From Brumimicrobium sp. (lineage in GTDB: Bacteria; Bacteroidota; Bacteroidia; Flavobacteriales_D; Crocinitomicaceae): 64,000 nucleotides of DNA. How positions within the stretch are numbered: the first letter of the stretch is position 1; every line of letters begins with the position of its first letter. The stretch is taken from assembly GCA_040882265.1 (NCBI GenBank), contig JBBEBO010000157.1, positions 14,778 to 78,777 on the forward strand, read 5' to 3'. Below, piece after piece: positions 55,834-63,339 of the stretch. The notes under the pieces are model-generated. The model was given only the letters and a program-made list of their open reading frames with translations. It ran no database searches and was not told where the DNA came from. The translations under genes were made by a program, and so were the position numbers.

Positions 55834-56409
55834 ATGTTTTTAGAACAATTCCCAGAAGATGGTAAGCGTCATGGATGGATAGAAGTGATTTGCGGTTCTA
55901 TGTTTTCTGGTAAAACTGAAGAGTTAATTCGCCGTTTGAGACGTGCCAAATTTGCTAATCAGGAGTTGTTGCTCTTTAAACCTAAGATTGATCGTAGATA
56001 TAGTGAAGAAAATGTGGTAAGTCACAATGGTGTTAGTTTTGAAGCTATTCAAATTGAACAATCTAAAGAAATTTTAGAACATTGGAAAAAAGAAAGAATT
56101 GTTGCGATTGATGAGGCTCAATTTTTTGATATGGAAGTTGTACAAGTTGTAAACCAACTTGCTTCAAAAGGTGTTCGTGTTGTATGTGCTGGGCTTGACA
56201 TGGACTACCAAGGCAATCCGTTCGGACCAATTCCTAATCTTTTAGCTTCAGCAGAATATGTAACAAAAGTTCACGCTATTTGTATGTCATGTGGAAATCT
56301 TGCTCAATTTTCACACAGAAAAAGTAAAGAGAAAGAACAAGTACTTGTAGGAGCTGTTGATGAATACGAACCATTATGTCGTTCTTGCTATAATAAAATT
56401 GCGCATTGA
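55834..56409 (+). CDS. tdk: Thymidine kinase
   Basis: GSMFSGKTEEL, IDEAQF, AGLDMD, C-x2-C...C-x2-C and YEPLCR. Confidence 0.97.
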   Translation: MFLEQFPEDGKRHGWIEVICGSMFSGKTEELIRRLRRAKFANQELLLFKPKIDRRYSEENVVSHNGVSFEAIQIEQSKEILEHWKKERIVAIDEAQFFDMEVVQVVNQLASKGVRVVCAGLDMDYQGNPFGPIPNLLASAEYVTKVHAICMSCGNLAQFSHRKSKEKEQVLVGAVDEYEPLCRSCYNKIAH

Positions 56410-58691
56410 AACTTGGACTAAAACATCGGGAAATTGCAGATATAATTGAAGGCACTATCATTCAAAAAAATGAAGGTACAGTTGATATTGTAGTTTACGA
56501 TTCTCGTGTGATTACTACTGATCGATCGGGCGTTTTTTTTGCACTGAAAGGAAAGCGTGATGGACATGAGTTTTGTCAAAAAGCATACGATAAAGGAGTG
56601 CGGTGTTTTGTAGTCAGTAACACAGTAAATTTACCTGAAGACGCATGTGTTATTTCGGTAGATGACGCACTAACAGCACTACAATTACTAGCGAAAAATC
56701 ATCGCAATCAATTTTCATTTCCCGTATTAGCAATTACAGGTAGTTTAGGTAAAACGATGATTAAAGAGTGGCTATATTTTTTAATTAAAGATCATTTTAA
56801 TGTTGTTCGAAGCCCTAAAAGTTATAACTCTCAAATAGGCGTGGCAATGTCATTGTTAGAAATGAATGATCAACACAATTTTGCCATTATTGAAGCTGAT
56901 ATTTCACATCCAAATGAAATGATTTCGCTGGAAGAAATGATTTCGCCTACTTTAGGAATCTTTACAGGTGTTGGCAAGAACTATGAAGCGAATTTTAAAT
57001 CGAAAAAAGATCATATTTCAGAACATTTGTATTTGTTTAAGCACTCTAACATTACTTTAGCATTAGATGATGAGCACAGTTCACTTAGAAGGAACAAAAT
57101 TAATGCTGAATTAACCAATTTAAAGTCTTGGAGCAATTTCAATGTTGAGAATAAACCATTTCCAAAAAATCGAACACTTGCGCTATTTGCCGCTGAGTTT
57201 CTTGGAGTGTCCAAGAGTGAATTGAGCGGAAAAGTTGATTTACTACCCATATTATCTAATCGTCAGGAGGTGTTTGAAGGTCAAAACGGCAATTTAATTA
57301 TTAATGATACGTATAATATTGATATCGATGCGCTAGAACAGTCTTTGGAATATCAGTTTTCATCTGACGAAAGGAGTAAAAAAGTTGTAGTTCTCGATTT
57401 ATCTCATGTTGATGAAACACGCAAGAAACAGATTGTTGAGCTCGTGAAAAGTTATCAACCGGATGATTTTTTTATTGTTAAAAATGATCAAATTCCTAAT
57501 GACCTCAAAAAAATAGAAAACGCTAGTATTCTTTTTAAAGGCTCTTATCGCTCTAATTTAAAGCAAACTGTACAACTATTTAAAAATAGAAAGCACGAAA
57601 CATGGGTAGAGTTTGACTTAAAAGCAATTAAGCACAATATCAGTGTTTTACAATCAAAATTGCCAGTTGGCACCAAAACACTTGTTATGGTTAAAGCTTC
57701 GTCTTATGGGACGGGAGATGTAAACATTCCTCATTTTTTACAACAAATTGGAGTTGATTACTTGGGTGTAGCTTATACAGACGAAGGTACAACATTAAGA
57801 GAAAAAGGAATTCAATTGCCTATTCTAGTCATGAATACAGAATTTAATGCGTTTGAGGATGTAACAAAGTTTAACTTAGAGCCTTCTATTTATGCACTTA
57901 GTCAGTTAAAGGTGTTTTGTGAGCACTTAGAAAAAGAAGGACTATCAAATTATCCAATTCATCTAACTTTTGAAACAGGAATGAATAGACTTGGTTTTGA
58001 CGAAGCCGATATTCCTGAATTATTGAACTTTATTACGTTGCACAAGGAAATTCAAATTCGAAGTGTTTATTCACATTTAGCTGACGCAGATAACAAGGAT
58101 ACGGAGTATACTGAAAATCAAATTTCCCGCTTTAAAAAGATTCGATCAATCATATTGGAAAATAAAGATATTCCTAACAGAGAAAATATCATTTTCCACA
58201 TATTGAATAGTGAAGGAGTGCTTCAGTTTGGAAAAAAAGCTGGTTTTGATATGGTTCGAGTAGGAATAGGTGTTTTTGGATATACATCTCAAGCAGAAGA
58301 ACTATTACCTTGTATTCGTTGGAAAACAACAATTTCACAAATAAAAAATTTAAAAGCAGGAGAAACGGTTAGTTATGGAAGAACTTTTCGTGCTGAAAAA
58401 CCAATGAAAACTGCTACTCTTCGAATTGGATATGCTGATGGTTTTAGACGATCTTTAAGTAATGGTGTAGGGAAAGTTTATATTAATGGTGAGTTTTGTC
58501 CTGTAGTTGGTAGTGTATGTATGGATATGATGATGGTGGATGTCACTCATGCTGATTGTAAAGAAGGAGATGAGGTTGAAATCATTGGTGATCACATTTC
58601 TATGCAAGTATTTGCAAAAAGCATTGGAACGATCCCTTATGAAGTGATGACGAGTATCAATAAACGTGTAGCCCGGATTTATTATTATTAG
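56406..58691 (+). CDS. alr: MurF-like/alanine racemase fusion
   Basis: N-part: AITGSLGKT, RSPKSYNSQIGV, NDTYN. C-part: MVKASSYG (PLP Lys), IGYADG, VCMD, TIPYE. Confidence 0.92.
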   Translation: MKLGLKHREIADIIEGTIIQKNEGTVDIVVYDSRVITTDRSGVFFALKGKRDGHEFCQKAYDKGVRCFVVSNTVNLPEDACVISVDDALTALQLLAKNHRNQFSFPVLAITGSLGKTMIKEWLYFLIKDHFNVVRSPKSYNSQIGVAMSLLEMNDQHNFAIIEADISHPNEMISLEEMISPTLGIFTGVGKNYEANFKSKKDHISEHLYLFKHSNITLALDDEHSSLRRNKINAELTNLKSWSNFNVENKPFPKNRTLALFAAEFLGVSKSELSGKVDLLPILSNRQEVFEGQNGNLIINDTYNIDIDALEQSLEYQFSSDERSKKVVVLDLSHVDETRKKQIVELVKSYQPDDFFIVKNDQIPNDLKKIENASILFKGSYRSNLKQTVQLFKNRKHETWVEFDLKAIKHNISVLQSKLPVGTKTLVMVKASSYGTGDVNIPHFLQQIGVDYLGVAYTDEGTTLREKGIQLPILVMNTEFNAFEDVTKFNLEPSIYALSQLKVFCEHLEKEGLSNYPIHLTFETGMNRLGFDEADIPELLNFITLHKEIQIRSVYSHLADADNKDTEYTENQISRFKKIRSIILENKDIPNRENIIFHILNSEGVLQFGKKAGFDMVRVGIGVFGYTSQAEELLPCIRWKTTISQIKNLKAGETVSYGRTFRAEKPMKTATLRIGYADGFRRSLSNGVGKVYINGEFCPVVGSVCMDMMMVDVTHADCKEGDEVEIIGDHISMQVFAKSIGTIPYEVMTSINKRVARIYYY

Positions 58692-60077: not shown

Positions 60078-61115
60078 ATGAAAAACGAACTTTTAGCAAT
60101 AAGAAAGTTATTATTGATTATAGTAGTGCCCTTGGTACTTTATTTATTAAATGTACTTTCTTTAATATTTATTCCTCTGGTATTTGCATTATTTGGGTCT
60201 TTACTTTTTATGCCGCTTATGCGTTGGTTTGCTAAAAAAAGAATTCCTAATTTTTTGGGAATTATTGCAGTTATTTTGATAATATCAGTTGGATTAAAAG
60301 GTGCTTACGAAGTTGTTCAACTTTCTGGGAAGGAAATTTCAAGTGCTAATGAAGATTTTTATCAGAAATTTGATAGTAAGCTCAATGATATTATAAGCCC
60401 TGTTATCGACTTTATGGGAATTGATGTTTCTGAAGGAGAAACAGATTTAGAGGCATTTATGAATGATGAAAAAGTTAGTTCTAATTTATTTGGTAATGTT
60501 GGAAGCGGGTTGAATTTTGCCAGAAAATTTGTAAGTATGCTTTTAATGACAATATTCTTTATGGTCTTATTGCTAGCTGGATCTATGAACATCCAAAAAG
60601 TGATGGAATTATTGATTTTTAAACAGCGATTTTCTTCGGTCAAAACGTTTAGACAAATAGAAAAAGATATTTTTAAATTTATTGTAGTTAAATTCTTTTT
60701 AAGTCTTTTTACTGGAATAGGTTTTGGTTTGGCGTGTTATTTCTTTGATGTAAGCTTTCCTATTTTTTGGGGCTTATTTGCATTTTTGATCAACTTTATT
60801 CAGATGATAGGCTCTGTAATATCTGTTGTTGTTTTATCTGCTTTTGCATTGGTAGAATTAGATCAAACAGGCACACTTCTTGTGTTTGTACTTGTAATTA
60901 CTGGCGTACAAGTATTATTTGGCGGAATATTAGAACCTATTCTAATGGGTAAATCTTTCTCAATTAATACCGTTACGGTACTCTTTATGCTAGCGCTTTG
61001 GGGCTTCATCTGGGGGATTCCAGGCTTGATTTTATCTATTCCAATTACAGCTTTGGTGAAAAAAATTATGGAACAGTTCCCAGGCACACAGGTTTATGCT
61101 AGAATTATGTCGTAA
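60078..61115 (+). CDS. AI-2E (PerM/TqsA) family transporter
   Basis: WGLFAFLINFI...IG, LEPILMG and WGFIWGIPGLILSIP. Confidence 0.92.
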   Translation: MKNELLAIRKLLLIIVVPLVLYLLNVLSLIFIPLVFALFGSLLFMPLMRWFAKKRIPNFLGIIAVILIISVGLKGAYEVVQLSGKEISSANEDFYQKFDSKLNDIISPVIDFMGIDVSEGETDLEAFMNDEKVSSNLFGNVGSGLNFARKFVSMLLMTIFFMVLLLAGSMNIQKVMELLIFKQRFSSVKTFRQIEKDIFKFIVVKFFLSLFTGIGFGLACYFFDVSFPIFWGLFAFLINFIQMIGSVISVVVLSAFALVELDQTGTLLVFVLVITGVQVLFGGILEPILMGKSFSINTVTVLFMLALWGFIWGIPGLILSIPITALVKKIMEQFPGTQVYARIMS

Positions 61116-61117
61116 AT

Positions 61118-61153
61118 AAAAAAGTCCGCCACGTAATTTGTGACGGACTTTTT
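61118..61153. terminator. Bidirectional intrinsic terminator (AI-2E gene / ssb cluster)
   Basis: AAAAAAGTCCGCCAC-GTAATTT-GTGACGGACTTTTT; the single mismatch is a G-U pair on the minus strand. Confidence 0.85.
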
Positions 61154-61232
61154 AAACTAACTTAACCATAAATCAAACTTGATTAAGGCGGTCGGCTAAG
61201 TTGATGTTTTTGGTGCTTAAGTTAGGTTGACT

Positions 61233-61550
61233 TTATAATGCAATTGCTTTTCTAACTTCTATTGCGGTTATTGATTTTTGCTTTCCTTCTTTAGAAAGAA
61301 ATTTTTGTGTTACTAATTTCCCAGTGATTGCTAGCTGTGTACCTTTTTTACCAGATTTAGCAATGTAGTTTGCTGTTGGGCCCCATGCATACAAATTATG
61401 CCAGAAAGTCTTTTGCTTTTTCTCACCTGATTTTGATGCGTAATATTCATTAGTAGCTAAAGTAAACCTTACTTTTTTTGCCCCACTTTCAAAATTTGTG
61501 ATTTCTGGGTCTATACCTACGTTGCCGATTAATTGAACTTGATTTTTCAT
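61233..61550 (-). CDS. ssb: Single-stranded DNA-binding protein paralogue 3 (tail-less, basic)
   Basis: NQVQLIGNVGIDPE, LATNE, WHNLYAWG and GKL; ends with the OB fold; no DDxPF tip. Confidence 0.88.
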   Translation of the reverse strand: MKNQVQLIGNVGIDPEITNFESGAKKVRFTLATNEYYASKSGEKKQKTFWHNLYAWGPTANYIAKSGKKGTQLAITGKLVTQKFLSKEGKQKSITAIEVRKAIAL

Positions 61551-61579
61551 TTTCTTAATTTTTATTTGCTTAATTCTAT

Positions 61580-61909
61580 TTATAATATTACTAGATCGTT
61601 GATCTCTACTTCTGTAAAAGCTTTTTTCTGTCCAGTTTTACTATTGTAAAATCTAGAGCGCAATTTACCTTCTATTGCAAGTGCCTGACCTTTACTCCCG
61701 AGTTGTTCGAGTACACTTACCCATTTACCCCATGCGGTAATGTTGTGCCAATTATTAATAGATTTTGTTTGGCCTTCATCGTCAAGATAGGTTTCTCGAG
61801 TTGATAATGAAAAACGTGCTATTCGTTTTCCGTCTTTAAGTTCTACAAACTTTGGGTCGCTTGACATTTGTCCTATTAAATTTACGTGGTTCATTTGATT
61901 AATTGTCAT
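61580..61909 (-). CDS. ssb: Single-stranded DNA-binding protein paralogue 2 (tail-less)
   Basis: NHVNLIGQMSSDP, WHNITAWG and IEGKLRSR; start probably 61909 (ORF open to 61936); no acidic tail. Confidence 0.88.
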   Translation of the reverse strand: MTINQMNHVNLIGQMSSDPKFVELKDGKRIARFSLSTRETYLDDEGQTKSINNWHNITAWGKWVSVLEQLGSKGQALAIEGKLRSRFYNSKTGQKKAFTEVEINDLVIL

Positions 61910-61946
61910 AATTATATTGATTAAATTAAAATTCATTTAAAAACTT

Positions 61947-61997
61947 ACCTAAATGCGAGGATGTCTATTTTTTTCGACACCCTCGCTGTGATTAGGT
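61947..61997 (-). other. Strong intergenic mRNA hairpin between ssb paralogues 1 and 2
   Basis: Minus strand GCGAGGGUGUC-GAAAAAAAUA-GACAUCCUCGC (11 bp, one G-U), extended by ACCUAA/UUAGGU. Confidence 0.7.
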
Positions 61998-62007
61998 GGC
62001 ATAAATG

Positions 62008-62379
62008 CTACGCTTTTTCTTTTTTATCTGTGTTAGACTTGTTTTTATCACGACTCAAAAGCATAAACTCACGAAGATTTATTTCCGTTTTATAGCGTTT
62101 TTCACCTTCCTTTGTGGTGTATGAGTCATTTACAAGCTTGCCTTCTAACACTATTTCAGAGCCTTTTTTCAATAGCTTGTTGCAAAGTTCTGCACTCTTG
62201 CCCCACGCTACAATGTTATGCCATTGTGTGTTCTCTACCCACTCGCCTTCTTTGTTTTTGTACGATTCGTTCGTAGCCACTCTAAAACGTGTAAGCATGT
62301 TGCCGCCTTCTAAAGTTTTAAATTCAGGATCTACTCCCAGGTTCCCGATTAAACTAACTGTGTTTCTTAACGTGTTCAT
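62008..62379 (-). CDS. ssb: Single-stranded DNA-binding protein paralogue 1 (no acidic tip)
   Basis: NTVSLIGNLGVDPE, VATNESY, TQWHNIVAWG, LEGKL and RYKTEI; ends DKKEKA. Confidence 0.92.
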   Translation of the reverse strand: MNTLRNTVSLIGNLGVDPEFKTLEGGNMLTRFRVATNESYKNKEGEWVENTQWHNIVAWGKSAELCNKLLKKGSEIVLEGKLVNDSYTTKEGEKRYKTEINLREFMLLSRDKNKSNTDKKEKA

Positions 62380-62448
62380 GTCTGTAAATTTTTAATTAAT
62401 AATAGTTTGAACATTTCGTCATAAGCTGACTCTCAGCGATTGACACTG

Positions 62449-62516
62449 CAAAGTTGAGACAAGTGCTTTCCTATATTCGGTTGTTTGTCGATTGTTGTCG
62501 AATATCTTTCGTTTGT
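62449..62516 (-). promoter_or_regulatory. ssb-cluster promoter: near-consensus -7 element plus four phased ACAANCGA(A/C)-like repeats
   Basis: CAACTTTG at 62456-62449; repeats at plus-strand 62476, 62487, 62497 and 62508. Confidence 0.6.
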
Positions 62517-62667
62517 AAGTAATTAAAACCGTTTATTGGTCTTATTTTACTGGTGATTTTAGAAATTGGAAAATTGAAAAAATTTAAACTTTTTTATTAG
62601 CAAACGATATTAACTTCATAATAAAGGATGATTCCTGTGTTGATTTCACCATATTCTGAAGATAAAC

Positions 62668-63339
62668 ATGCTTAGTACAAATTTTCTTTCTATATTTAAA
62701 GCTATAACATTAAAACACTTAACAAATCATACCTTTTTGAAAAAGAAAACTTTTTTACTTTTCATTACAATTTTCATCCTCAGTTTTTTTAACTGCTTGA
62801 TGGCTCAAAACAGCTCATCAACTAAAGAGAGGGGTGATGGTTTGTTTGGAAGTAGTATTTATGTTGGTGCAGGTTACGGATATGGATATTATACACGTAT
62901 ATGGACAGATTACCCTTACTCTGCAATTACTGGAAAGATTGGAAATAGATGGAAGTTAAAAGGTTCACATCACGCTATATACAATTTTGGCATTCAATTT
63001 ACTTGGCTAACTATTTCTATAAACGAGAACCTTGCTCCACAAAAAGAGTACTTTCCATTTGGGGTCGGCTTTGCTGGCATTGGAATTTCAAATATGTTTA
63101 GAGCCAATAAGAGCTTTGGCTTTGAGGTGAATATAAACTTAATGCCACATATTCAGAAAAAAAGTAATCACAACAATCGTTATATTGGCCCAATGGTAAA
63201 CCTTGAATTAAGAATGAGGTATAAAGCATTTTATATTGGTTTAGATTCAGGGGTTTCCATAAACATAAGCGTACCAGATTTTATTCTTGGAGGCTATTCA
63301 GGTCTAAAACTTGGTTTTAATTTATTTGCTAAAGAATAG
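62668..63339 (+). CDS. Hypothetical exported protein, probable outer-membrane beta-barrel (start uncertain)
   Basis: Signal-like hydrophobic stretch, Gly/aromatic-rich strands, C-terminal 'LKLGFNLF'. Confidence 0.55.
   Translation: MLSTNFLSIFKAITLKHLTNHTFLKKKTFLLFITIFILSFFNCLMAQNSSSTKERGDGLFGSSIYVGAGYGYGYYTRIWTDYPYSAITGKIGNRWKLKGSHHAIYNFGIQFTWLTISINENLAPQKEYFPFGVGFAGIGISNMFRANKSFGFEVNINLMPHIQKKSNHNNRYIGPMVNLELRMRYKAFYIGLDSGVSINISVPDFILGGYSGLKLGFNLFAKE

What the first reader, a model, noticed from the sequence alone, without database searches (positions are those of the whole stretch)
61233..62379. Operon of three diverged, tail-less SSB paralogues: candidate heteromeric (RPA-like) ssDNA-binding system
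Seen: three consecutive co-oriented OB-fold genes (123, about 109 and 105 aa) that have clearly diverged. All keep aromatics at the E. coli W40/W54/F60/W88 positions (Y,W,W,Y; Y,W,W,Y; Y,W,W,F) and the oligomer-interface His of 'WH'. All lack the linker and acidic DDxPF tip. Their surfaces differ: paralogue 1 has LVNDSY in place of LRTRKW, paralogue 2 keeps LRSR with an acidic L45 loop (LDDEG), and paralogue 3 is strongly basic (hand count 18 K/R versus 7 D/E). Known: bacterial SSB is a homotetramer that recruits partners via the tip; a single extra short SSB (SsbB, PriB-like) is linked to transformation or restart; eukaryotic RPA is a heterotrimer. Inference: subfunctionalised subunits of a hetero-oligomer, or a set of specialised inducible ssDNA/RNA protectors for repair, DNA uptake or anti-phage roles. 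I know of no described three-SSB operon.
Basis: partly seen in the sequence, partly recalled or inferred. Interest (0 to 1): 0.8.

Follow-up and report, generated by a model that had tools for sequence, protein, structure and literature searches.

The report
Conserved operon of three tail-less SSBs
This marine Flavobacteriales bacterium (Brumimicrobium group) has, besides its normal single-stranded-DNA-binding protein, a conserved three-gene set of old, diverged copies that lack the partner-recruiting tail; they probably act together, but whether they form one mixed complex is untested.

Summary
Three co-oriented SSB-fold genes of 123, 109 and 105 aa lie on the minus strand at 62379-61233. They are 37-43% identical and none has an acidic tip. 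A canonical tailed ssb (…DDDDLPF) lies elsewhere in the genome.

The trio is not strain-specific. A paralogue-2 orthologue occurs in 82 of 121 Crocinitomicaceae genomes (21 of 29 genera). The order 1-2-3 held in every intact Brumimicrobium-type locus and in 19 of 20 loci from 14 other genera. dN/dS is about 0.07-0.11.

New here:
- Paralogue 1 is the family's version of a short tail-less SSB found across class Bacteroidia.
- That gene always sits behind the same promoter, with about five helically phased CG-centred repeats. In other orders it is linked to an uncharacterised Zn-ribbon gene.
- Paralogues 2 and 3 are family-specific duplicates.
- Clade-specific fixed residues fall on the tetramerisation face.
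- Paralogue 1 lost an otherwise conserved Arg only in trio-bearing genera.

A hetero-oligomer is plausible (about 0.45) but unproven. It is not an RPA homologue. This scan already found the same trio in another genome (e1-4420436).

The parts
62008..62379 (-). P1: 123-aa tail-less SSB. It is the orthologue of the short SSB found across class Bacteroidia and ends in a short K/E-rich C-terminus without an acidic tip.
   Evidence: PF00436 E 1.2e-31 and TIGR00621 132 bits. It groups with the short SSBs of other Flavobacteriales families in the tree. dN/dS is 0.11.
61580..61909 (-). P2: 109-aa tail-less SSB. This is the most diverged clade, with a long stem branch. It keeps the RSRF motif and has invariant His/Asn at EcoSSB positions 7 and 9.
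   Evidence: PF00436 E 1e-22. Its clade has 100% SH-aLRT support. dN/dS is 0.07. The AF2 model has pLDDT 91.9 and matches SSB folds. The start codon is set by its orthologues.
61233..61550 (-). P3: 105-aa strongly basic tail-less SSB (pI 10.0). Glu80 is replaced by Thr or His in the whole clade, and Lys62 by Pro in Brumimicrobium-type loci.
   Evidence: PF00436 E 9e-25. Charge count is. dN/dS is 0.11. The AF2 model has pLDDT 93.3.
62474..62537 (-). Upstream operator: helically phased CG-centred repeats (TTACAAACGAA / AGATATTCGAC / AACAATCGAC / AAACAACCGAAT, plus a distal AAACGG unit). They occupy the place of the missing -33 element.
   Evidence: The region is conserved across about 20 loci of the genus group. 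Anchored on the TTTG box, 28 of 29 short-SSB loci from many Bacteroidia genera show the same architecture. In this genome it occurs only here and before the second P1-like gene.
62449..62456 (-). Bacteroidetes-type -7 promoter element, CAACTTTG. The conserved CAGTGTCAAT follows it and is the likely transcription start region.
   Evidence: The alignments show CTTTGCAnTGTCgAT as near-invariant. The last repeat unit lies 29 nt upstream of TTTG in many loci. The promoter consensus is from established knowledge; the transcription start was not mapped.
62380..62448 (-). Conserved, mostly unstructured A/U-rich 5' leader. It has a small covarying hairpin (62425-62437) and a near-invariant translation-initiation region, GTTCAAACTATTATTAATTAAAATTTACAGAC.
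   Evidence: Bases -150 to -1 show 73% mean pairwise identity, against 48% at P1 third codon positions and 42% further upstream. The fold z-score is 0.26, so it is not structured.
61955..61986 (-). Strong hairpin in the P1-P2 spacer. It is a candidate partial terminator, attenuator or mRNA-stability element.
   Evidence: Free energy is -26.1 kcal/mol, z -6.7, with 0 of 200 shuffles as stable. Most Brumimicrobium-type loci (at least 15 of 18 folded) have a GC-rich hairpin of differing sequence at this place. Other genera have P1-P2 gaps of only 10-30 nt, too short for such a hairpin.
61118..61228 (-). 3' UTR of P3. A long stem (61155-61228) encloses a conserved CCTAAATCA…GGTATGCA-type motif in relatives. 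An intrinsic terminator (61118-61153) follows and is shared with the convergent transporter gene.
   Evidence: Fold is -32.6 kcal/mol, z -5.3. The motif and the flanking complementary arms are visible in 12 loci. The alignment was too gappy for a formal covariation test.

Best explanation
Shown:
- This is a chromosomal, vertically inherited module of three anciently diverged tail-less proteins of the bacterial SSB fold. It is additional to a canonical tailed SSB.
- P1 is the Crocinitomicaceae version of a short SSB present across class Bacteroidia.
- That gene is driven by one dedicated, deeply conserved promoter that lacks a -33 element and has about five helically phased repeats.
- P2 and P3 arose by duplication inside the family and have stayed directly downstream of P1 in the same order ever since.

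Inferred:
- The three genes are expressed together from that promoter when its unknown activator is engaged.
- They coat ssDNA through the retained aromatic and basic residues, and they cannot recruit the SSB interactome because none has the acidic tip.
- They most likely co-assemble into mixed tetramers through a beta1/beta4 face that has diverged in a clade-specific way.
- P2 and P3 then supply a DNA-contact Arg that P1 has lost.
- In this genus, the hairpin after P1 probably makes P1 more abundant than P2 and P3.
For: - Fold and residues.
- Canonical ssb between mutY and a gldE-like gene.
- Distribution: P2-clade hits in 82 of 121 family genomes and 21 of 29 genera.
- Order: 1-2-3 in 19 of 20 loci from 14 other genera and in every intact Brumimicrobium-type locus. 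Gaps are often 10-30 nt. Whole trios are duplicated in G001 and G011.
- Tree: P1 groups with the short SSBs of other families, P2 and P3 form a sister group, and genera with pairs hold an intermediate form.
- Selection: dN/dS 0.07-0.11.
- Interface: four of the 10 columns fixed differently in the three clades are EcoSSB positions 7, 9, 76 and 80. Gln76, Gln110 and His55 are named as homotetramerisation residues in PMC3991886.
- Arg loss: the Arg at EcoSSB position 86 is present in 18 of 19 first-gene short SSBs outside trio genera but in only 5 of 41 trio P1s. It is replaced by D, S, Q, T, K, N, H or Y. P2 and P3 keep it in every orthologue shown from the 14 other genera (20 and 19) and P2 in 19 of 20 Brumimicrobium-type loci; Brumimicrobium-type P3 keeps it in only 10 of 20.
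- Promoter conservation.
Against:
- P1-type SSBs work alone in most Bacteroidia. This genome also has an extra solo P1-like gene with the same promoter. P1 therefore probably still forms homo-oligomers.
- All three keep His55 and could each form homotetramers.
- The strong P1-P2 hairpin in this genus argues against equimolar subunits.
- Assigning positions 7, 9, 78 and 80 to the dimer-dimer face rests partly on my memory of the EcoSSB structure.
- The Arg pattern could also reflect a changed role of P1 without any physical association.
- Related genomes are not independent observations.
Confidence: 0.45

Rival explanations
1. There are three separate homo-oligomeric accessory SSBs. After duplication each paralogue was insulated from the others and specialised, for example by binding mode, affinity, salt or temperature optimum, or ssDNA versus RNA. 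The operon only ensures co-regulation.
For: - His55 and the full set of aromatic residues are kept in each paralogue.
- Each clade has its own invariant surface signature and a different charge: pI 9.2, 9.3 and 10.0.
- P1-type proteins occur alone in other families and as an extra solo copy here.
- The hairpin after P1 allows different dosage.
- Divergence of interface residues is also what insulation between paralogues would look like.
Against: - P2 and P3 were never seen without an upstream P1 in about 40 loci.
- Whole trios are duplicated as units.
- Many genera have very tight spacing between the genes.
- P1 lost a conserved Arg only where P2 and P3 exist.
Confidence: 0.35
2. The proteins bind RNA or act as regulators rather than protect ssDNA. 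They could be OB-fold chaperones or translational autoregulators acting on the conserved A/U-rich leader and on the CCTAAATCA-type motifs near the P2 and P3 start sites and in the 3' UTR.
For: - The 5' leader is strongly conserved and unstructured.
- CCTAAAT-type motifs recur before the P2 and P3 starts and in the conserved 3' UTR element.
- The proteins are basic.
Against: - The canonical ssDNA-stacking residues are fully retained.
- No known RNA family matches the region.
- The motif observation is anecdotal and its alignment is poor.
Confidence: 0.07
3. The tail-less subunits mix with the canonical tailed SSB and so lower the number of acidic tips per tetramer, which would tune recruitment of repair and replication partners.
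For: All are the same fold with His55 conserved, and the promoter looks inducible.
Against: Residues at the putative tetramer face differ systematically between the tailed and short clades: Y78 versus A/V, I9 versus S/N/Q, L59 versus A, R61 versus G. The short and tailed clades separated before the orders of Bacteroidia diverged.
Confidence: 0.05
4. The genes are cargo of a mobile element, phage or defence island, such as a leading-region or anti-restriction type SSB, rather than a core chromosomal function.
For: The flanking genes differ between genomes and some genomes hold two trios. Another finding of this scan described tandem tail-less SSBs on a conjugative element.
Against: - The neighbours here are housekeeping genes: a MurF/Alr-like gene, a glycosyltransferase and a transporter.
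- PADLOC gives no hits.
- The distribution is family-wide and synonymous divergence is about 1.0-1.3 even in the least-diverged pairs.
- The tree clusters rows by genus and family, and the P1 promoter is conserved across the class.
Confidence: 0.03

Closest known systems
SsbB-type tail-less SSB paralogues of Firmicutes (B. subtilis and S. pneumoniae SsbB; S. aureus SsbB and SsbC)
   Same: These are extra SSB-fold proteins of about 105-130 aa beside a canonical tailed SSB. They keep the OB core and the aromatic residues, lack or shorten the acidic tip, and are expressed from their own regulated promoter. Solved SsbB structures are among the fold matches. A third paralogue in S. aureus is described in PMC5945547.
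   Different: - Those are single genes that form homotetramers and, for SsbB, are tied to competence regulons.
- Here three diverged paralogues sit in one fixed-order operon.
- The lineage arose independently within Bacteroidia: the NCBIfam equivalogs for the Firmicutes types score far below cut-off.
- No competence link was found.
Deinococcus-Thermus SSB (two diverged OB folds in one chain; homodimer with four OB folds; PDB 1se8, 2fxq, 2ihf)
   Same: It is a functional tetramer of OB folds built from non-identical, anciently duplicated SSB domains. Its C-terminal OB domain is among the best sequence matches of P1. This is the best precedent for a pseudo-heterotetrameric bacterial SSB.
   Different: There the two OB folds are fused, the protein carries an acidic tip and it is the cell's main SSB. 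Here the OB folds are three separate genes, all lack a tail, and they are accessory to a normal SSB.
Eukaryotic and archaeal RPA (heterotrimer)
   Same: Only the idea is shared: several different OB-fold subunits encoded separately could act as one ssDNA-binding complex.
   Different: The OB-fold families differ: only PF00436 matches here. The P2 and P3 models end in a beta-strand with no C-terminal helix for a three-helix trimerisation bundle. There are no zinc-finger or winged-helix modules. Hetero-association is not shown.
PriB (replication-restart protein of beta- and gamma-proteobacteria, derived from SSB)
   Same: It is a roughly 104-aa tail-less derivative of SSB that exists beside the canonical SSB.
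   Different: PriB is a dimer encoded in the rpsF-priB-rpsR operon and has lost SSB-type tetramerisation. These genes keep His55, lie in a different context with their own promoter, and gave no PriB family hit.
The unnamed short SSB of Flavobacteriia noted in Nowak et al. 2014 (PMC3991886)
   Same: That paper records a 102-aa SSB without the terminal motif in Psychroflexus torquis and an extra SSB-like gene in Flavobacterium psychrophilum. These fit the P1-type family described here.
   Different: The authors set those proteins aside without study. The paper does not mention a trio, a promoter or a linked Zn-ribbon gene.

Membership tests
Bacterial SSB family (Pfam PF00436 / TIGR00621) | OB-fold domain matching the family model above the curated cut-off | tested here: met
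   P1, P2 and P3 score 109, 81 and 87 bits against a cut-off of 26, and 132, 77 and 95 bits against TIGR00621's cut-off of 54.
Bacterial SSB family (Pfam PF00436 / TIGR00621) | SSB-type three-dimensional fold: a five-stranded OB barrel with long beta-hairpins and one helix | tested here: met
   The AF2 models have pLDDT 91.9 (P2) and 93.3 (P3). The P2 model matches SSB chains such as 1eyg, 2vw9, 7f2n and 5odn at TM 0.8-0.87.
Bacterial SSB family (Pfam PF00436 / TIGR00621) | Aromatic stacking residues at EcoSSB positions 40/54/60/88 and the oligomerisation His55 | tested here: met
   Y/W/W/Y(F) and invariant His in all three clades, about 20 orthologues each.
Canonical (replisome-organising) SSB | Disordered linker plus an acidic C-terminal tip (D-D-D-I/L-P-F) | tested here: not met
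   P2 and P3 end at the OB core and P1 ends …DKKEKA. The canonical gene with …DDDDLPF is on another contig.
Homotetrameric assembly as in EcoSSB | Four identical subunits | not testable with these tools
   Only single chains could be modelled. Residues on the tetramerisation face differ between the clades.
SsbB-type competence SSB (Firmicutes) | Membership of the SsbB equivalog families | tested here: not met
   NF005579 and NF005242 score 33-61 bits against cut-offs of 169 and 189.
SsbB-type competence SSB (Firmicutes) | Control by a competence regulon | not testable with these tools
   No competence regulator motif is defined for this group. The upstream repeats occur only before the P1-type genes in this genome.
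PriB | Gene lies inside the rpsF-rpsR ribosomal operon | tested here: not met
   The neighbours are an AI-2E-type transporter and a beta-barrel-like protein, and no PriB model matched.
RPA-type heterotrimer | RPA-family OB domains and a C-terminal helix for the trimerisation bundle | tested here: not met
   Only PF00436 matches. The P2 and P3 models end in a beta-strand.
RPA-type heterotrimer | Stable association of the different subunits | not testable with these tools
   No multimer prediction or experiment was available. The evidence is indirect only: co-occurrence, fixed order and complementary residue changes.
SOS (LexA-type) regulon of Bacteroidetes | A GGA-N5-TCC or CTAA-N5-TTAG operator upstream (PMC8565304) | tested here: not met
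   Neither motif occurs in 62380-62667. The motifs were taken from the paper.
Known anti-phage defence systems (PADLOC) | Match to a defence-system protein model | tested here: not met
   No hits for any of the three proteins.

The most novel reading that the evidence does not exclude
The three proteins are obligate subunits of a defined hetero-oligomeric bacterial SSB, with P1 as scaffold and P2 and P3 as the main DNA-contacting subunits. It would have evolved by duplication and complementary degeneration of a homotetramer. It would be switched on by a dedicated, class-wide regulatory circuit: the phased-repeat operator read by the linked Zn-ribbon protein. That would be a bacterial counterpart of RPA that arose independently, plus a previously unrecognised inducible ssDNA-protection pathway in Bacteroidia.
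Probability: 0.25. Interest if true: 0.8.

Novelty: new variant of a known kind. Interest (0 to 1): 0.55.

Why it matters
Bacterial SSB is the textbook homotetramer that organises genome maintenance through its acidic tails. A family-wide, selected operon of three tail-less paralogues offers a natural experiment on how a homo-oligomer turns into a hetero-oligomer, or into insulated specialists. Complementary changes at the oligomer face and at a DNA-contact arginine make that question concrete.

The wider point may be more useful. Most Bacteroidia appear to carry an unstudied short SSB with one of the most conserved promoters I have seen in the group, often paired with an unstudied Zn-ribbon protein. 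Working out what induces it would open a new piece of DNA metabolism in a phylum whose stress regulation is poorly known. Tractable species such as Flavobacterium johnsoniae or Bacteroides may carry the single-gene version; I did not check.

Tried and rejected
- Rfam scan of 60900-62800 at permissive E-values: only chance-level hits, so no known riboswitch, leader or STAXI motif.
- PADLOC: no defence-system match.
- Bacteroidetes LexA operators from PMC8565304: absent upstream.
- A wider regulon for the phased repeats in this genome: fuzzy and periodic pattern searches and short-word BLAST found only the two P1-type promoters.
- Literature: searches for multiple SSBs in Bacteroidetes or Flavobacteria, for short-SSB expression, for Riemerella competence plus SSB, and for the repeat sequence gave nothing specific. 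The only relevant item was the passing remark in PMC3991886.
- A formal covariation test of the 3' UTR element was dropped because the MAFFT alignment was too gappy.
- My first crude chain-counting of repeats undercounted them. I replaced it with an alignment anchored on the TTTG box.
- A mirror-tree or rate-correlation analysis was considered and dropped, because shared phylogeny would confound it.
Full report
**1. Observation**

The minus strand of 61233-62379 carries three consecutive ORFs.
- P1 is 62379..62008 (123 aa).
- P2 is 61909..61580 (109 aa). An upstream ATG at 61936 would give 118 aa, but orthologues begin at the M-x-V/I-x-Q-M-N-H-V position.
- P3 is 61550..61233 (105 aa).

Each matches Pfam SSB (PF00436; E 1e-31, 1e-22, 9e-25) and TIGR00621 above cut-off. 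They are 37-43% identical to one another.

I aligned them with about 20 orthologues per clade and with EcoSSB. All three clades carry Y/W/W/Y(F) at EcoSSB positions 40/54/60/88 and an invariant His55. None has a linker or an acidic tip.

AlphaFold2 models of P2 and P3 are confident (pLDDT 91.9 and 93.3). The P2 model superposes on solved bacterial SSB cores at TM 0.8-0.87.

**2. The rest of the genome**

The assembly is 3.7 Mb in 213 contigs, and close relatives are labelled Brumimicrobium. It holds six SSB-family genes.
- A canonical 149-aa SSB ends in …DDDDLPF and lies between a mutY-like and a gldE-like gene.
- The trio described above.
- A fourth short gene, 82% identical to P1, stands alone next to a convergent transporter gene at a contig end.
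- A divergent 147-aa SSB has an acidic tail ending in …GENDF.

The trio is therefore accessory to a normal replicative SSB.

**3. Distribution and history**

With P2 as query, 82 of 121 sampled genomes of the family Crocinitomicaceae have a P2-clade hit (E ≤ 1e-27, at least about 45% identity). That covers 21 of 29 genera.

The genes lie in the order P1-P2-P3 on one strand in every intact Brumimicrobium-type locus fetched from public genomes. The same is true in 19 of 20 loci from 14 further genera, often with gaps of only 10-30 nt. Two genomes carry two complete trios, some carry a fourth P1-like gene inside the array, and the flanking genes differ between genomes.

Outside the family, Flavobacteriales genomes typically have the tailed SSB plus one short tail-less SSB of 110-117 aa, sometimes two. 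That short gene is most similar to P1.

The maximum-likelihood tree has only 123 columns, so deep forks are weak. It separates a tailed group from a short-SSB group.
- P1 clusters with the short SSBs of other families (SH-aLRT 83).
- P2 (100) and P3 form a second group (88).
- That second group also holds the second gene of the two-gene arrays in two other genera of the family.

The simplest reading has three steps. An ancestral short SSB (P1 type) duplicated in the family. The copy then duplicated again into P2 and P3. P2 then changed rapidly (stem branch 0.94) before settling.

Pairwise dN/dS among orthologues is 0.11 for P1, 0.07 for P2 and 0.11 for P3. These are Nei-Gojobori estimates from pairs with dS 0.1-1.5.

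**4. Regulation**

The 150 nt upstream of P1 are 73% identical on average between loci. This compares with 48% at P1 third codon positions and 42% further upstream. The region consists of the following parts.
- Phased repeats at 62474-62518, plus a distal unit at 62527-62537.
- A variable spacer of about 20 nt.
- A Bacteroidetes-type -7 box, CAACTTTG, at 62449-62456, with no -33 element.
- The conserved CAGTGTCAAT.
- A small covarying hairpin.
- An unstructured A/U-rich leader that is nearly invariant up to the ATG.

This confirms and extends the neighbouring first-stage note e1-5274216.

The same module precedes the solo P1-like gene and occurs nowhere else in this genome. Its depth of conservation was unexpected. 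I anchored the upstream regions on the TTTG box. In 28 of 29 short-SSB loci, drawn from other families of Flavobacteriales and from other orders of class Bacteroidia, three features recur.
- About five CG-centred units at steps of 10-11 bp, of the type TTACAAACG / GTAAACG / AACCGAAT.
- The last unit 29 nt before TTTG in many loci.
- CTTTGCAnTGTCGAT after the box.

Other classes of the phylum had only tailed SSBs in the sample.

The known Bacteroidetes LexA operators (GGA-N5-TCC and CTAA-N5-TTAG; PMC8565304) are absent upstream. Phased direct repeats that abut a promoter with no -33 element are what a dedicated activator site looks like. This is an inference; nothing here shows binding.

**5. 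A linked Zn-ribbon gene**

In several orders a gene of 113-130 aa is transcribed divergently from the short ssb, and the repeats fill the shared intergenic region. The protein has the pattern CxxC…GRxDKKFCxDxCRNxYNN…LRKNRRIL…YGYLPLE. Its only family matches are sub-threshold zinc-finger models (DUF2116 treble clef, zf-FCS, YacG-like). Databases call it hypothetical or 'predicted nucleic acid-binding Zn ribbon protein'.

In the phylum-level sample it is present in 11 of 14 Bacteroidia genomes and in 0 of 46 genomes of other classes.
- All 11 genomes also have the short SSB.
- In all 11 the two genes lie within 7 kb of each other, and in 6 they are directly divergent.
- Only one genome has the short SSB without the Zn-ribbon gene.

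In the present genome the two homologues are unlinked: C64 16963-17337, and the start of the window's own contig. The protein is a candidate regulator or partner of the short SSB. This is a lead and has not been tested.

**6. Operon structure in this genus**

The P1-P2 spacer holds a strong hairpin at 61955-61986 (-26 kcal/mol, z -6.7). Most Brumimicrobium-type loci (at least 15 of 18 folded) have a GC-rich hairpin of unrelated sequence at the same place, and some are followed by a T-run. The rest of the spacer is too short and too unlike a promoter to start transcription. P2 and P3 therefore probably depend on read-through, which would make P1 more abundant than P2 and P3.

In many other genera the P1-P2 gap is only 10-30 nt, leaving no room for such a hairpin. 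Tight co-transcription is thus probably the older state.

Downstream of P3 lies a conserved 3' UTR: a long stem around a CCTAAATCA…GGTATGCA motif, then a terminator. I could not align it well enough for a covariation test.

**7. Homo- or hetero-oligomer?**

No tool here tests this directly. The indirect evidence leans towards joint action.
- P2 and P3 were never seen without P1 upstream. The order is fixed, and whole trios duplicate as units.
- Ten columns are fixed within each clade but differ between clades. Four of them are EcoSSB positions 7, 9, 76 and 80. Gln76, Gln110 and His55 are cited as the EcoSSB homotetramerisation residues in PMC3991886.
- I place positions 7, 9, 78 and 80 on the sheet face that packs dimer against dimer. 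That placement comes from my memory of the EcoSSB structure and was not checked against coordinates. At positions 7/9/76/78/80/110 the patterns in this genus are T,S,E,V,E,M for P1, H,N,A,A,E,V for P2 and Q,Q,Q,A,T,V for P3. The tailed clade has K,I,K/Q,Y,E,T.
- The Arg at EcoSSB position 86 is present in 18 of 19 first-gene short SSBs outside trio-bearing genera. It is kept in only 5 of 41 trio P1s, where it is replaced by many different residues. P2 ('SRF') and P3 ('NRTY') keep it in every orthologue shown from the 14 other genera (20 and 19). Among the Brumimicrobium-type loci P2 keeps it in 19 of 20 but P3 in only 10 of 20. The variety of replacements points to relaxed constraint on P1 once the other two exist.

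There is also evidence against an obligate heteromer.
- P1-type proteins work alone in most Bacteroidia, and there is a solo copy here.
- All three keep His55.
- The hairpin suggests unequal dosage.
- Divergence at the interface is also what insulation between paralogues would produce.

I put mixed assembly at about 0.45 and separate homo-oligomers at about 0.35.

**8. Comparison with known systems**

The nearest functional precedents are the tail-less SsbB and SsbC paralogues of Firmicutes, which are single genes forming homotetramers, some under competence control. For the idea of non-identical OB folds in one tetramer, the precedent is the two-OB SSB of Deinococcus-Thermus. An earlier follow-up in this scan (e1-4420436) named that same precedent for the same trio in a freshwater member of the family.

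The proteins belong to the bacterial SSB fold family. They are not canonical SSBs, because they lack the tip. They are not members of the SsbB equivalogs or PriB, and they are not homologues of RPA (see the membership table).

I found no paper describing the trio, the class-wide short SSB as a family, its promoter or the Zn-ribbon linkage. Nowak et al. 2014 only mention such short genes and set them aside.

**9. Verdict**

The feature is real, conserved and selected. I class it as a new variant of a known kind, accessory tail-less SSB paralogues.
- P1 is an orthologue of a class-wide short SSB with a dedicated, deeply conserved phased-repeat promoter.
- That gene is linked to a Zn-ribbon gene in other orders of the class.
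- Complementary residue changes among the three paralogues make the heteromer hypothesis concrete and testable.

Noticed in passing
window 62449-62537 (minus strand); also L046, L048, L052-L057, L071-L092, L098, L111: The promoter of the short tail-less SSB is conserved across class Bacteroidia. It has about five CG-centred units at steps of 10-11 bp (TTACAAACG / GTAAACG / AACCGAAT). The last unit lies 29 nt before the TTTG of a -7 box with no -33 element, and CTTTGCAnTGTCGAT follows. I saw this in 28 of 29 loci. In this genome it occurs only before the two P1-type genes.
   Followed up: yes
own genome contig C64 16963-17337 (+) and contig C157 162-524 (-); L074, L079, L083-L085, L087, L098, L100, L111: An uncharacterised Zn-ribbon protein of 113-130 aa (CxxC…GRxDKKFCxDxCRNxYNN…LRKNRRIL…YGYLPLE) has no Pfam match above cut-off. 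It is present in 11 of 14 Bacteroidia genomes sampled and in 0 of 46 from other classes. It always lies within 7 kb of the short ssb and is often divergent across the repeat region. It is a candidate regulator or partner. In this genome it is unlinked.
   Followed up: partly
window 61955-61986 (minus strand): A strong hairpin lies between P1 and P2 (-26 kcal/mol, z -6.7). Most Brumimicrobium-type loci (at least 15 of 18 folded) have a hairpin of different sequence at the same place. Genera with 10-30 nt P1-P2 gaps have no room for one. It may be an attenuator that sets the ratio of P1 to P2 and P3.
   Followed up: partly
window 61155-61228 (minus strand); L019-L034 downstream of P3: The 3' UTR of P3 is conserved. 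Complementary arms enclose a CCTAAATCAAAACGGTATGCA-type motif that resembles the translation-initiation regions of P2 and P3, and in several loci contains a mini-ORF, ATG CAA CCA TAG. It could be the relic of a fourth gene start or a regulatory RNA element. Rfam has no match.
   Followed up: partly
own genome contig C55 36090-36449 (L003 1438-1815, minus): A second, solo P1-like gene (125 aa, 82% identical to P1) has a 90%-identical copy of the promoter and leader. The contig breaks inside that repeated promoter, and contig C109 probably continues it.
   Followed up: partly
own genome contig C2 (L006 1483-1926, +): A divergent 147-aa SSB-family protein has an acidic C-terminus ending in …DDYTLGENDF. 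It lacks several aromatic positions (VNCTIW in place of WHN). In the tree it groups with one long-branch tailed protein of another family. Its origin may be a mobile element or phage; I did not examine this.
   Followed up: no
L029 1111-1449: In one small metagenome contig, labelled Xanthomarina but with Brumimicrobium-type content, the P1 orthologue has an in-frame stop at codon 22 while P2 and P3 are intact. This is either a sequencing error or a rare pseudogene.
   Followed up: no
window 56406-58691 (+): A 761-aa ORF appears to fuse a MurF-like N-terminal half with an alanine-racemase-like C-terminal half. I judged this by eye from the translation only.
   Followed up: no
L013, L015-L018 (flanks of the trio in other Brumimicrobium genomes): In several congeners the trio lies next to lycopene-cyclase-domain and beta-carotene-hydroxylase-like genes, instead of the transporter seen here. 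The flanks are therefore not conserved. A link to light or UV is pure speculation.
   Followed up: no
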